From a virus: a stretch of 18,159 nt of DNA. The DNA lies in the UHGV virus genome UHGV-0178165; one strand, 5' to 3'. Each line of letters starts with the position of its first letter. The stretch's first letter is position 1. Shown piece after piece: positions 1 through 3,000 of the stretch. The position numbers were made by a program.

Positions 1-3000
1 TCTTTCGTCATAAAATTTAAATGCAGAGTCAATTTCCAGCACTGGCGGCATCTTGCAGCACGTCGCCTGACGGGTAAGGCGCTTAAGGAGAATACCAGGC
101 TTCAGCTCAAGTGACGCGATGCACGTCTTCACACCCTGACGCATTGCCTCAAGTGCCATATGCCCGACAACCTCGGTGTTATGCGTCGCCACATATCCCC
201 TGGTTACATACAGGTGGCGAGGGTGATCGACCATAATACACAAGCATTCTGCATTGCCTATTTTTTCAACATTCCTGACGAATACCCCACAGCCCTCGAA
301 TCGATGCGCAGTTAATCTGCCATTGAGTCGTGGTGAACGGATGGCATCCCTGATTTCTCTTGTCAGTCTGATTCTTGCCTCGTATGAATCCATCCCATGC
401 CGCTTATCGCCCTTGTATGTGTATGTCACGCCAGTTTTAACTCGCGTCCGGCATGACCCGCCGAGTGAGTTAACCAGTTGAACAACCCCATTGAGCAGTT
501 CTTCACTTGCTGAGGAAAAAACAAGCGTTCCATCCTTCTCGACATACCCATCCGTTTCAAGCAGACCACACAGCATGCCTATACGCGTTGATTTATTTGC
601 AGAAAAAAACACACGAGGGATGAATTTGTTTTTTGCTGTGCACCCCATTAGTCCATAACCTCGCAGGGTCTCCATGAGTGGATTTACCTGACCACGCGCC
701 GTTGATATCAGCCAGTCCTTACCATCTCCAGAGAAGTTGTAATCAGGCAGTTCAGCCTTCATACGCTCGATCATGTATGGCTCGACGTTTGAAAACTTCA
801 CGCTCCCATTGCTAAGACTACCATCCCCGAGAAGGGAGCCGATAACCCATGCTAATGGCTCTGAGTGGTCGCCAAAGTCACCAGTTATTTCAGGAATCCT
901 AACGCCATTTTTGTGCCTCTTCGTTTCACTCAACCGTTTCAGCTCGAAGGTGTCTATCACGCGGCGCTTCTCGCCTTTCGTGAATCCACGACTAGTGACC
1001 TCCCATAGGTGATCGCCTGCGCAATCAACATAACGACCATCTTCAAATGTGACTCGGTAAACATCTCTAACACCCTGCGGGAATATCCCGGTGACAGTTG
1101 ACGGATTGCCGTCAACTGACGCCACCTGATCGCCAATTTTTACATCCCCGTGAGTAGTCCATTCACCATTAGCGAGCAGAATTGGTTCATCAAGTGGACA
1201 GGCTTTTCCGTGACCGTTCACACCATTGACCAGCGTCAACTCGGCCTCACGGAACTGGAATTTATCTGCCAGAGATTCCCACGGTGGATTAAACAGATAC
1301 TGCTGCTTGCCGTAGAAAGCGTTGATAGTGTCCTGGTAAAACTCTCGCGCGCTGTAGAGTTCTTCAGGATCGAAGTAGGATGCCGTGCCGATGTACTGCC
1401 AGATTTCATCCTCGGTAACACCGTTCATCAGGCATTCGTTGATGTCTTTGTACGGCAGAGTAACAAGACGGCAACGATGTTCACCGAGTCGGCTTGCGAT
1501 TTCCCTTGCGGCTTCACGACCAACATCATCAACGTCCATCGAGATGAATATTTCCTCAAACCTGTCGAGGTTGTGATACTCAAACTCAATCCACTGTTGC
1601 TTAGCGCCTTTCCCGCCACCAAACGGCACGGATAACGCCGAGATGCCGTATTGCGCATAGCTCATACAATCAATTTCGCCTTCGCAAAGTACAACCGCCC
1701 TCACGCCAGCGTCCAGAGCCTGCCATCCGAACAGACAAGGTTCGCAATCACCTTCTGCCATAATGACTTTCTTCCCGTCCGGGCGCTCAGTGCTGATTCG
1801 CTTGACCTGCAACAACTCACCATCGCGTTTGTACGGAAGCACCAGTGCATCAAGTTCTCGTTCTCCATCCCACACCTTGCCGCTGACAACCTCGTAGCGC
1901 TTTACGACTTCTGGCGATATGCCACGCGATTGCAGGTACTCAAGATGGGATTCTGTTCTGGTAACGTAGCGGGCGATTTTCTTGCGGTCAGGTCTGGAGA
2001 ATTTCTTCTCACGTTTGGCATCGAAATGGTGATCGTCATCCTTGATTCCGAGAAATGCTTTCGCTTCCTGCATAGCCTGATGCAGGTTAATTCCACGACA
2101 TGCCATCCACAAATCAAGCATGTCACCGCCGTCTCCCTCAGCGAAATCAGCCCATTTTTTCTTGCCGCTAAGGTTGACCTTAAGGCTGTTTCCCTTGTCA
2201 CCGTTGACGTTACCGGCAACCCACTCATGCCCCTCTTTCTTGCCGTTTGGCAACAGGTGCGGAGCCACCCTGTCAACCTGCGCCCAAAGCAGGTCGCTGA
2301 GTTCACTTGGCCTCATGATTCCCTCAGATTGAGATTTTTAAACCAGAAATCGACAAACGAAATACTTAACCAGCCGTGGTTATAACCAGCGACCAGTAGC
2401 GATTTGATTTTTGATTTCATGGTTCACCTGTCGAAAAACACGTAGCCATTTTTCGATACGGTGATTGCGGATGATGGTTTGGATTGTGGTTGAATAGTTT
2501 CTGGCTTCTCGTCGTTCCAGCGTTGACCGTTCAGGTAGCTCGATGGTAACAACCTGTCGAATCCGAACTGCTTACCACTCCTGCATGCGATGTCTTCTGC
2601 CAGCATCGTGGCAAACTCGCTTGCCGTACCCCTTGTAGTTTTACGCCATTCCCTGAACTGTGTTCTGAATGCTGAAGCTGCGTTTTTCTTCCCGGCTTTC
2701 CGCATGCCTGCACACCAGAATATTTCCTCGAATGCCTTGTCGGTTTCTTCGTGACGGTCAGGAGTTTTTTCACACTCTGTTCGGACATGTTCGAACATAA
2801 TGTTTTTAGGTTCATTGACTGGTTCAAAAGAGTGACTGGTTCTGGGTGCAGCTCCTGCACCACCCCCTAGTGAATCTCCTGCACCAGGGTGGTGAATCTC
2901 CTGCACTACCCCTAGTGAATCTCCTGCACCCCCAAGCCGAAGAATATAGATATTACTTGAGTTGCCTTTTTCACCTTTTCGGGTGACTTTTTTTAGCAAG

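What the first reader, a model, noticed from the sequence alone, without database searches (positions are those of the whole stretch)
178..1200. Intein with LAGLIDADG homing endonuclease inserted at the P-loop of the phage primase-helicase
A 341-aa in-frame insertion starts with Cys directly after ...GVNGHGKA and ends ...THN before Thr. It carries Hint blocks and two LAGLIDADG motifs, so it is a full-length, probably homing-competent intein at the conserved ATP-binding site. The extein-side junction is GKA rather than a canonical GK[ST], so the exact splice boundaries need alignment. It is a selfish element layered on the replication module, and the host ORF is absent from the supplied ORF track.
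Basis: partly seen in the sequence, partly recalled or inferred. Interest (0 to 1): 0.7.

Follow-up and report, generated by a model that had tools for sequence, protein, structure and literature searches.

The report
Known class 3 intein in phage helicase
The phage's primase-helicase gene is interrupted, exactly inside its ATP-binding loop, by a self-splicing protein element (an intein carrying a homing endonuclease); it is real, but the same element is already published in Shiga-toxin phages, and the only correction is that it starts one residue earlier (at Ala, not Cys), which makes it a "class 3" intein.

Summary
The finding is real and its main reading is right. The host gene lies on the minus strand (ATG at 2316) and runs off the left end of the window, which is why the ORF track missed it. 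Intein-less homologues (phage mEp043, ES18, SEN22 and about 217 E. coli genomes) read ...GVNGHGK|TEVVGH..., and their DNA is exactly 1026 nt (342 codons) shorter. The intein is therefore A-CPLD...ATHN, at 178..1203 on the minus strand. It starts with Ala, not Cys, and splicing restores a canonical Walker A motif, GVNGHGKT.

It carries every class 3 sequence signature: no N-terminal nucleophile, Trp67 (B:12), Cys322 (F:4), Thr340 (G:5) and Thr+1. Its closest solved relatives by sequence are the class 3 mycobacterial DnaB P-loop inteins.

Two LAGLIDADG motifs with intact catalytic Asp residues, and an AlphaFold model (pLDDT 96) that matches PI-SceI, show a complete endonuclease domain. Whether that domain is active is not shown.

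The same intein, about 97% identical, was already reported in the P gene of Stx phage 24B, and related prophage primase inteins were listed in InBase. This is an ordinary, already known element, so interest is low.

The parts
1204..2316 (-). N-extein of the primase-helicase (371 aa, Met1 to Lys371). It ends with GVNGHGK, the first part of the Walker A P-loop.
   Evidence: Translation. It differs at 6 of 1113 nt from the intein-less mEp043 gp55.
1429..1692 (-). Toprim (primase catalytic) domain of the host protein, aa 209-296.
   Evidence: Pfam Toprim_2, E = 1.5e-11, 44.9 bits against a cut-off of 22.1.
1204..1224 (-). Walker A residues G-V-N-G-H-G-K (aa 365-371). [quoted passage not shown]
   Evidence: Intein-less homologues read GVNGHGK-T continuously. 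115 of 129 related inteins are preceded by GK.
178..1203 (-). The intein: 342 aa, from Ala1 (1201..1203) to Asn342 (178..180).
   Evidence: There is a gap of exactly 1026 nt in 5 intein-less alleles. It aligns in register with the class 3 inteins 6bs8 and 6rix. The AF2 model has pLDDT 96.3 and matches PI-SceI at E = 2.6e-18.
997..1038 (-). Splicing block B (residues 56-69, GRYVDCAGDHLWEV). His65 (B:10) and Trp67 (B:12) are the 'W' end of the WCT triplet.
   Evidence: His65 and Trp67 are invariant in 130 of 130 aligned family members. The segment aligns to HQW of the Msm and Mch DnaB class 3 inteins.
322..903 (-). Homing endonuclease domain (about residues 101-294).
   Evidence: Pfam LAGLIDADG_3, E = 3.5e-9. 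phmmer matches PI-SceI and PI-PkoII. Foldseek matches PI-SceI, PI-PfuI and I-DmoI.
820..855 (-). First LAGLIDADG motif (residues 117-128, LAWVIGSLLGDG), with catalytic Asp127.
   Evidence: Asp at this column in 109 of 130 family members, with flanking Gly in 126-127 of 130.
547..582 (-). Second LAGLIDADG motif (residues 208-219, IGMLCGLLETDG), with catalytic Asp218.
   Evidence: Asp in 129 of 130 family members. The KFIP lysine, Lys193, is also conserved in 129 of 130.
202..249 (-). Splicing block F (residues 319-334, ECLCIMVDHPRHLYVT). Cys322 (nt 238..240) is the F:4 nucleophile of class 3 inteins.
   Evidence: Cys322 is invariant in 130 of 130. It aligns to the catalytic Cys of 6bs8 and 6rix, 'rCveVD'.
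178..198 (-). Splicing block G (residues 336-342, GYVATHN), with Thr340 (G:5), His341 and the terminal Asn342.
   Evidence: Thr in 128, His in 129 and Asn in 130 of 130 family members.
1..177 (-). Start of the C-extein (59 aa, TEVVGHMALEAM...). Thr+1 (175..177) is both the splice nucleophile and the Walker A Thr. The gene continues beyond the window edge; the full-length homologue is 968 aa.
   Evidence: It is identical in protein to mEp043 gp55 after GK, with one synonymous difference, ACC against ACG at Thr+1. phiKp_30 BEI45467 is 968 aa.

Best explanation
Window 178..1203 (minus strand) encodes a 342-aa bifunctional class 3 intein. It sits between Lys and Thr of the Walker A P-loop (GVNGHGK|T) of a T7-gp4-like Toprim + DnaB-type primase-helicase, in a P22-like/lambdoid phage replication module.

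What is shown:
- The element is an in-frame insertion that is absent from otherwise near-identical alleles.
- It has the Hint fold split by a double-LAGLIDADG domain.
- It has Ala at position 1 together with the W67/C322/T340 triplet, His65, His341-Asn342 and Thr+1.

What is inferred from the established class 3 mechanism (Tori 2010; Kelley 2018):
1. The precursor is an inactive ATPase because its P-loop is split.
2. Cys322 attacks the Lys371-Ala1 peptide bond and forms a block-F thioester branched intermediate.
3. The N-extein is passed to the hydroxyl of Thr+1.
4. Asn342 cyclises and releases the intein.
5. An O-to-N shift makes the native GK-T bond and restores the helicase.

At the DNA level, the LAGLIDADG domain is expected to cut intein-less alleles around GGTCACGGAAAA|ACGGAGGTTGTC. 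During co-infection or a phage-prophage encounter, the intein would then be copied in by repair (homing). This would account for the presence/absence polymorphism across phage backgrounds. Endonuclease activity itself was not shown.

The confidence of 0.9 applies to 'class 3 intein with Ala1 at the P-loop of the primase-helicase'. For current homing activity alone I would give about 0.5.
For: Empty site:
- mEp043, E. coli 19AR1321, APC_JM3.2, SEN22 and ES18 read GHGK|TEVV with a 1026-nt gap.
- In complete E. coli genomes, 79 of 296 carriers have the filled allele.

Host protein:
- Toprim_2 is found in the window protein.
- AAA_25 and DnaB_C cover the P-loop region of the intein-less homologue.

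Intein identity:
- The best PDB sequence matches are the class 3 DnaB inteins 6rix, 6riy and 6bs8. They align residue 2 to 2 and 342 to the chain's last residue, with HxW, the F:4 Cys and THN aligned.
- In 129 relatives aligned with the window intein (130 sequences): GK precedes the intein in 115. Position 1 is Ala in 103 of 130 and never Ser or Thr. W67 and C322 are present in 130 of 130, T340 in 128 of 130 and N342 in 130 of 130. The +1 residue is Thr or Ser in 128 of 129.
- The AF2 model has pLDDT 96.3. Foldseek gives PI-SceI at E = 2.6e-18 (TM 0.73), the class 3 DnaB inteins at about 1e-6, and I-DmoI.

Endonuclease:
- LAGLIDADG_3 is above the Pfam cut-off.
- Asp127, Asp218 and Lys193 are intact.

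Selection and viability:
- All 5 filled alleles are open, and the splicing domain has pN/pS = 0.11 (14 synonymous against 5 non-synonymous changes).
- Phages that carry it (24B, phiKp_30) are deposited as complete phage genomes.

Literature: class 3 definition and mechanism (PMC2807308, PMC3196547); a class 3 intein at the DnaB P-loop (PMC6195587).
Against:
- The Pfam Hint model is below its gathering score (25.2 bits against 32.1).
- In the few available allele comparisons the endonuclease domain shows 1 synonymous against 4 non-synonymous changes. That is too few to judge, but it is compatible with relaxed constraint, so homing competence is uncertain.
- The C-terminal 196 aa of the host gene lie outside the window, so the intactness of this particular copy cannot be confirmed.
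- The immunity and replication region next to it is rearranged.
Confidence: 0.9

Rival explanations
1. It is a standard class 1 intein with the reader's boundaries. Cys (the residue after GKA) would be intein residue 1 and the initiating nucleophile, and the spliced helicase would carry GHGKA-T.
For: A Cys lies immediately next to the junction, and the element ends in HN followed by Thr.
Against: - The empty-site gap is 342 codons, not 341. GKA-T would put an extra Ala into the Walker A motif, which no intein-less homologue has.
- With Ala as residue 1 the sequence is in register with solved class 3 inteins and with 129 relatives.
- Position 2 is Gln in 102 of 130 aligned sequences, and Cys only in this lineage.
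- F:4 is Cys rather than the usual class 1 Asp, and the block B TxxH Thr is absent (Ala62).
Confidence: 0.03
2. It is a class 3 intein that still splices but whose endonuclease is no longer active. The presence/absence pattern would then reflect inheritance and exchange of replication modules between phages rather than ongoing homing.
For: - Changes in the HEN domain between alleles are 1 synonymous against 4 non-synonymous.
- Filled alleles fall into only two closely related groups.
- Among the representative genomes of 185,579 species, only E. coli and S. flexneri carry it, and both copies are truncated.
Against: - Both catalytic Asp residues, the conserved Lys193 and all four endonuclease motifs are intact.
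- The model of the domain is confident.
- The filled allele occurs in very different phage backgrounds (Stx Sepvirinae and P22-like Lederbergvirus), while the exteins differ at only about 0.5% of nucleotides from empty alleles.
Confidence: 0.35
3. It is a decayed, non-splicing intein (a pseudogene, like Arth_1007) in a defective phage remnant, so the helicase is never matured.
For: - The neighbouring immunity and replication region of this window is rearranged.
- Truncated copies exist in Shigella.
- The Min27 host gene is annotated as split.
Against: - Every residue required for class 3 splicing is present.
- No stop codons occur in 5 alleles, and the splicing domain is under purifying selection.
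- A 99.5% identical gene is carried by phiKp_30, a phage isolated from sewage, and by the Stx phage 24B.
Confidence: 0.04
4. It is a native subdomain of the helicase and not a mobile insertion.
For: None was found.
Against: Homologues whose exteins differ at about 0.5% of nucleotides lack the whole 1026 nt and read through the P-loop.
Confidence: 0

Closest known systems
Intein in the P (primase-helicase) gene of Stx phage vB_EcoP_24B / Min27 and Shigella flexneri prophages (Smith et al. 2012, PMC3430580; the 'ShP-Sfv ... Primase' inteins of InBase mentioned in Tori et al. 2010, PMC2807308)
   Same: It is the same element at the same site. The host gene and intein are 97.3% identical in DNA across window 1-2420, the insert is the same 1026 nt, and the junctions are the same.
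   Different: - This copy and the phiKp_30 copy belong to a slightly different allele: 24 nt differences, 12 changed codons among the first 14.
- They sit in a P22-like phage rather than an Stx phage.
- Smith et al. gave only approximate limits (aa 372-702) and did not assign a class.
Mycobacterium smegmatis DnaBi1 and M. chimaera DnaB-1 class 3 mini-inteins (PDB 6bs8, 6rix; PMC6195587, PMC7664689)
   Same: - They have Ala1, the WCT triplet and a C-terminal THN.
- They are inserted in the P-loop of a DnaB-type ATPase, where the +1 residue is also a P-loop residue.
- They are the best solved sequence relatives (E = 5e-10 to 1e-7).
   Different: - They are mini-inteins without an endonuclease, in a cellular DnaB, with Ser+1.
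- The Cys48 that forms the redox disulfide in Msm DnaBi1 aligns to Val47 here.
Mycobacteriophage Bethlehem DnaB intein, the class 3 prototype (PMC2807308)
   Same: It is a phage-encoded class 3 intein of similar length (341 aa) in a helicase, with Thr+1, Thr-His-Asn at the C terminus and an F:4 Cys nucleophile.
   Different: The host phage and host protein differ. The sequences were not compared directly here.
PI-SceI (the yeast VMA1 intein)
   Same: The overall two-domain architecture is the same, a Hint domain plus a double-LAGLIDADG endonuclease. It is the best structural match (E = 2.6e-18, TM 0.73).
   Different: PI-SceI is a class 1 intein (Cys1, Cys+1) with an additional DNA-recognition region. 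Sequence identity is only about 15%.

Membership tests
Intein (Hint splicing domain) | In-frame insertion in a conserved host protein, absent from close homologues. | tested here: met
   There is a gap of 1026 nt (342 codons) in 5 sequenced empty alleles, and about 217 of 296 E. coli carriers lack it.
Intein (Hint splicing domain) | Splicing blocks A, B, F and G, with His B:10, a C-terminal His-Asn and a Ser/Thr/Cys at +1. | tested here: met
   His65, His341, Asn342 and Thr+1 are present and are invariant or nearly so in 130 aligned sequences. phmmer against solved inteins gives E = 5e-10. The Pfam Hom_end_hint model is only sub-threshold.
Intein (Hint splicing domain) | Hint (Hedgehog/intein) fold. 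| tested here: met
   AF2 model with pLDDT 96.3. Foldseek matches PI-SceI, 6bs8, 6rix, gp41-1 and Prp8 inteins.
Intein (Hint splicing domain) | Protein splicing actually occurs. | not testable with these tools
   This needs expression plus a western blot or mass spectrometry.
Class 3 intein | No Ser/Thr/Cys nucleophile at intein position 1. | tested here: met
   The empty-site alignment makes Ala residue 1. Ala is at position 1 in 103 of 130 aligned sequences.
Class 3 intein | WCT triplet: Trp at B:12, Cys at F:4 and Thr at G:5. | tested here: met
   Trp67, Cys322 and Thr340 align to the triplet of 6bs8 and 6rix. They are present in 130, 130 and 128 of 130 family members.
Class 3 intein | Thr or Ser (rarely Cys) at +1. 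| tested here: met
   Thr+1.
Class 3 intein | Splicing through a block-F (Cys F:4) branched intermediate, with Cys F:4 essential. | not testable with these tools
   This needs C322A mutagenesis and trapping of the intermediate.
Class 1 (standard) intein | Cys/Ser/Thr as the first intein residue, initiating an N-S or N-O acyl shift. | tested here: not met
   Residue 1 is Ala. The neighbouring Cys is residue 2 and is unique to this lineage.
LAGLIDADG homing endonuclease (double-motif, intein-borne) | Two dodecapeptide motifs, each ending in a catalytic acidic residue. | tested here: met
   LAWVIGSLLGDG (Asp127) and IGMLCGLLETDG (Asp218). Pfam LAGLIDADG_3 scores 37.2 bits against a cut-off of 22.5.
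LAGLIDADG homing endonuclease (double-motif, intein-borne) | LAGLIDADG alpha-beta fold. | tested here: met
   Foldseek matches PI-SceI, PI-PfuI, I-DmoI and I-Tsp061I.
LAGLIDADG homing endonuclease (double-motif, intein-borne) | Site-specific cleavage of the intein-less allele, and homing. | not testable with these tools
   The only indirect evidence is the polymorphic filled and empty sites, and Thr+1 codon ACC in 5 of 5 filled alleles against ACG or ACT in 5 of 5 empty alleles.
T7 gp4-like bifunctional primase-helicase (host protein) | N-terminal Toprim primase domain plus C-terminal DnaB-type P-loop ATPase. | tested here: met
   Toprim_2, E = 1.5e-11. In the intein-less homologue, AAA_25 scores 28 bits against a cut-off of 27, and DnaB_C scores 23.8 bits, which is sub-threshold. 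The helicase part of this copy is mostly outside the window.

The most novel reading that the evidence does not exclude
Cys2 is unique to this lineage: the family has Gln at that position in 102 of 130 aligned sequences. It sits directly beside the scissile Lys-Ala bond. With the catalytic Cys322, or with Cys320, it might form a reversible disulfide that stalls splicing under oxidative conditions. That would parallel the redox trap of the mycobacterial DnaBi1 class 3 intein, but with a different partner cysteine. Maturation of the replication helicase of Stx and P22-like phages would then be tied to the redox state of the induced host. Nothing here tests this.
Probability: 0.08. Interest if true: 0.55.

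Novelty: already known. Interest (0 to 1): 0.15.

Why it matters
The practical value is for annotation. The gene should be annotated as one 968-aa precursor with an intein at residues 372-713, with Ala as intein residue 1. Public records instead call it 'hypothetical protein', 'replication protein P' or 'toprim domain-containing protein'.

The case also shows how a stray Cys at position 2 can make a class 3 intein look like a standard one. Boundaries should be set from empty-site alleles.

Biologically, it is one more example of the well-known preference of class 3 inteins for the P-loops of phage helicases. It adds no new principle. It could serve as a convenient enterobacterial system for studying class 3 splicing and homing between prophages.

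Tried and rejected
- Plus-strand translation of 1-2400 in all three frames gave only short ORFs. The long antisense ORFs at 1150..1635 and 1651..2385 (+) lie inside the real minus-strand gene and are treated as spurious.
- Pfam Hint models gave only a sub-threshold hit. The Hint assignment was therefore made from PDB sequence matches, the family alignment and the predicted structure.
- The word-indexed protein search returned only 5 hits. The exhaustive representative search was needed to see the family.
- I tried to read Tori & Perler 2011 (PMC3133030) and the supplementary tables of Tori 2010, to confirm that the Min27 and Sfv primase inteins are listed as class 3. Neither is held. My recollection that InBase lists 'EP-Min27 Primase' therefore stays unverified.
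- pN/pS for the endonuclease domain was attempted, but only 5 substitutions separate the available alleles, so it is inconclusive.
- The scan of GTDB species representatives found only two truncated copies, so it gave no wider host range.
- Cys-Cys and Cys322-to-N-terminus distances in the model could not be measured, because the coordinates are not exposed.
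Full report
**1. What is in the sequence**

None of the three plus-strand frames of 1-2400 holds a long ORF. On the minus strand, one frame is open from ATG 2316..2314, which is preceded by GAGGG, down to base 1. That is 772 codons with no stop. The gene runs off the left edge of the window, and ORF lists that omit end-truncated ORFs do not show it.

**2. The host protein**

Residues 209-296 match Pfam Toprim_2 (E = 1.5e-11). The intein-less homologue from phage mEp043 (gp55, 626 aa) has Toprim_2 and then AAA_25/DnaB_C over residues 355-594. 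ES18 gp61 is annotated as similar to T7 gene 4. The host is therefore a bifunctional primase-helicase in the replication module of lambdoid and P22-like phages. In the window it lies next to an O-like replication protein.

**3. Empty sites and the true boundaries**

megablast of window 1-2420 finds two kinds of alleles.
- Filled alleles give full-length matches: phiKp_30 at 99.5%, Stx2_16002 at 98.3%, and Min27, 24B and other Stx2a phages at 97.3%.
- Empty alleles cover 57-58% of the query in two pieces and span 1394 nt instead of 2420: mEp043, Sf101, APC_JM3.2, SEN22, ES18 and many Salmonella phages.
- Among complete E. coli genomes, 296 carry the gene and 79 carry the filled form.

The difference is exactly 1026 nt, or 342 codons. 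Side by side, empty alleles read ...GGTCACGGAAAA|ACGGAGGTTGTCGGGCAT... (GHGK|TEVVGH). Filled alleles read ...GGAAA(A/G)|GCC TGT CCA ... CAT AAC|ACC GAG GTT.... No other placement of the gap fits the flanks. The inserted element is therefore Ala-Cys-Pro-Leu ... The spliced product carries a canonical Walker A motif, GVNGHGKT.

**4. It is a class 3 intein**

Class 3 inteins are defined by three things (PMC2807308, PMC3196547):
- no Ser/Thr/Cys at position 1;
- the WCT triplet (Trp B:12, Cys F:4, Thr G:5);
- usually Thr or Ser at +1.

Here residue 1 is Ala. Block B reads GRYVDCAGDH65LW67. Block F reads EC-L-C322-IMVD. Block G reads YVA-T340-H-N342, followed by Thr+1.

The best sequence matches among all solved structures are three class 3 DnaB inteins: M. 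chimaera DnaB-1 (6rix and 6riy, E = 5e-10 and 2e-9) and M. smegmatis DnaBi1 (6bs8, E = 1e-7). They align residue 2 to 2 and 342 to the last residue of the chain, with HxW, the F:4 Cys and THN in register. Msm DnaBi1 also lies in the P-loop of a DnaB ATPase, and its +1 residue doubles as a P-loop residue (PMC6195587).

An exhaustive phmmer scan of 1.84 billion representative proteins found 16,961 relatives at E <= 1e-3 and 3,034 at E <= 1e-30. I aligned 129 full-length relatives with the window intein, 130 sequences in all. Counts of preceding and +1 residues are for the 129 relatives.

| Feature | Count |
|---|---|
| Preceded by GK | 115 of 129 |
| Position 1 | Ala in 103; never Ser or Thr; Cys in 3 |
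| His65 | 130 of 130 |
| Trp67 | 130 of 130 |
| Cys322 | 130 of 130 |
| Thr340 | 128 of 130 |
| His341 | 129 of 130 |
| Asn342 | 130 of 130 |
| +1 residue | Thr 120, Ser 8, Cys 1 |
| Position 2 | Gln in 102; Cys only in the window sequence |

It makes the element look like a standard intein. The block B Thr of TxxH that is typical of class 1 is absent (Ala62).

**5. The endonuclease**

Pfam LAGLIDADG_3 is above its cut-off (37.2 bits against 22.5, E = 3.5e-9). phmmer also hits PI-SceI and PI-PkoII over residues 173-251. The two dodecapeptides are LAWVIGSLLGD127G and IGMLCGLLETD218G. The Asp columns are conserved in 109 and 129 of 130 relatives, and the KFIP lysine (Lys193) in 129 of 130.

An AlphaFold2 model built on a 54-sequence alignment is very confident (mean pLDDT 96.3, pTM 0.93). 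Foldseek against the PDB returns:
- PI-SceI first (E = 2.6e-18, TM 0.73), then the TliVMA/PhoVMA inteins and PI-PfuI;
- the class 3 DnaB mini-inteins for the splicing lobe;
- I-DmoI and I-Tsp061I for the endonuclease lobe.

The domain is complete. Its activity was not tested.

**6. Selection and mobility**

All five filled alleles I examined (window, phiKp_30, Min27, Stx2_16002, E. coli FDAARGOS_944) keep an open 1026-nt intein.

Between the window and the Stx-phage allele:
- the splicing domain has 14 synonymous and 5 non-synonymous changes (pN/pS 0.11), similar to the N-extein (0.14);
- the endonuclease domain has only 1 synonymous and 4 non-synonymous changes, too few to judge.

The exteins of filled and empty alleles are nearly identical: 6 of 1113 and 1 of 177 nt differ from mEp043. 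Filled alleles also occur in unrelated phage backbones, Sepvirinae Stx phages and P22-like Lederbergvirus. Both points fit recent gain or loss by homing or by module exchange. The only consistent flank difference is the Thr+1 codon: ACC in 5 of 5 filled alleles, ACG or ACT in 5 of 5 empty alleles.

Among the GTDB species representatives, only one E. coli and one S. flexneri genome carry the intein. Both copies are cut after intein residue 241 by an IS3-family transposase. This matches the 'partial ShP-Sfv primase inteins stopping before block F' noted by Tori et al..

**7. Mechanism**

The steps are inferred from the class 3 literature.
1. The precursor has a split P-loop and should be an inactive ATPase.
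2. Cys322 attacks the Lys371-Ala1 amide and forms a thioester branched intermediate.
3. The N-extein is transferred to Thr+1.
4. Asn342 cyclises and releases the intein.
5. An O-to-N shift restores GK-T.

The sequence requirements for each step are shown to be present. The chemistry itself is not shown.

**8. Comparison with what is known, and novelty**

Smith et al. 2012 already reported that the P gene of Stx phage 24B 'carries an intein interrupting residues 372-702', with orthologues in Min27 and a S. flexneri prophage (PMC3430580). That gene is 97.3% identical to the window over 1-2420. Class 3 inteins, their preference for helicase P-loops and their proposed phage origin are established. 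This is therefore an already known element. What this check adds is the exact boundary (Ala1, 342 aa), the class assignment for this allele, and the observation about Cys2.

**9. Verdict**

Homing competence is plausible but unproven. Interest is low.

Noticed in passing
window 2692-2953 and 4225-4507: There are 22-nt iterons (CCCTAGTGAATCTCCTGCACCA). Three or four copies lie inside the O-like replication gene (2424..3194, minus strand). A second array of about 5 copies lies inside a 98% identical 220-nt duplicate 1.5 kb away. This looks like a second, orphan origin fragment.
   Followed up: partly
window 3195-4780 and 9864-10573: The immunity region looks rearranged.
- An 84-aa ORF (3229..3483, minus) duplicates the N-terminus of the replication protein, at 80% DNA identity.
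- cII is truncated to 41 aa (3511..3636, minus).
- No cI/c2-type repressor ORF lies between the Cro-like HTH gene (3777..3992, minus) and the N gene (4774..5118, plus).
- No integrase lies next to the tailspike gene (10573..13269, minus).

The closest phage for the primase gene, phiKp_30 (33.7 kb, from sewage), has no annotated repressor in the equivalent gap and no annotated integrase in its first 13 kb (most of its genes there are labelled 'hypothetical protein'). The window may come from a virulent or deleted P22-like derivative.
   Followed up: partly
L004 2787-3281 (E. coli 19AR1321): In an intein-less allele, a free-standing NUMOD4/HNH homing endonuclease gene sits immediately upstream of, and overlaps, the primase-helicase start. 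This is a second kind of selfish endonuclease at the same gene. ES18 has a small ORF, gp60, at that position.
   Followed up: no
L002 908-3816 (phage Min27): In Min27 the host gene is annotated as two CDS: 860 aa 'replication protein P' and 111 aa 'DNA primase'. The translation diverges after ...SICDFK from the 968-aa protein of phiKp_30. This is a frameshift in the C-extein, either a sequencing error or a pseudogene.
   Followed up: no
L012 1388-4061 (S. flexneri SFBU1023); L011 (E. coli ECMA0423): The intein-bearing gene is truncated after intein residue 241 by an IS3-family transposase gene. In L012 a second IS-type ORF also lies upstream of the gene. This matches the 'partial' Shigella prophage primase inteins in InBase. 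The partial protein cluster P0001 has 182 member sequences.
   Followed up: partly
window 1159-1206 (intein codons 1-14 plus Lys-1): Twelve of the first 14 intein codons differ, mostly synonymously, between the window/phiKp_30 allele and the Stx-phage allele. The 582-nt endonuclease part differs at only 5 positions (pS 0.007 against 0.135). This looks like a short recombination patch at the N-terminal junction.
   Followed up: partly
window 175-177: The Thr+1 codon is ACC in all 5 filled alleles and ACG or ACT in all 5 empty alleles examined. It is the only consistent flank difference. It could be a co-conversion mark or a change that protects the filled allele from cleavage.
   Followed up: partly
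window 1150-1635 and 1651-2385, plus strand: Long antisense ORFs (161 and 244 aa) run opposite the primase-helicase gene. The 244-aa one is also open in the Shigella copy. They are most likely by-products of the conserved sense frame.
   Followed up: no
P0005 (416 aa, metagenome): This is a DnaB whose related P-loop intein (60% identical over the first ~80 residues) breaks off right after block B (SHLWEI|PEHY...) and continues into a domain with Pfam PF04233. It is either a truncated intein or a chimeric contig.
   Followed up: no
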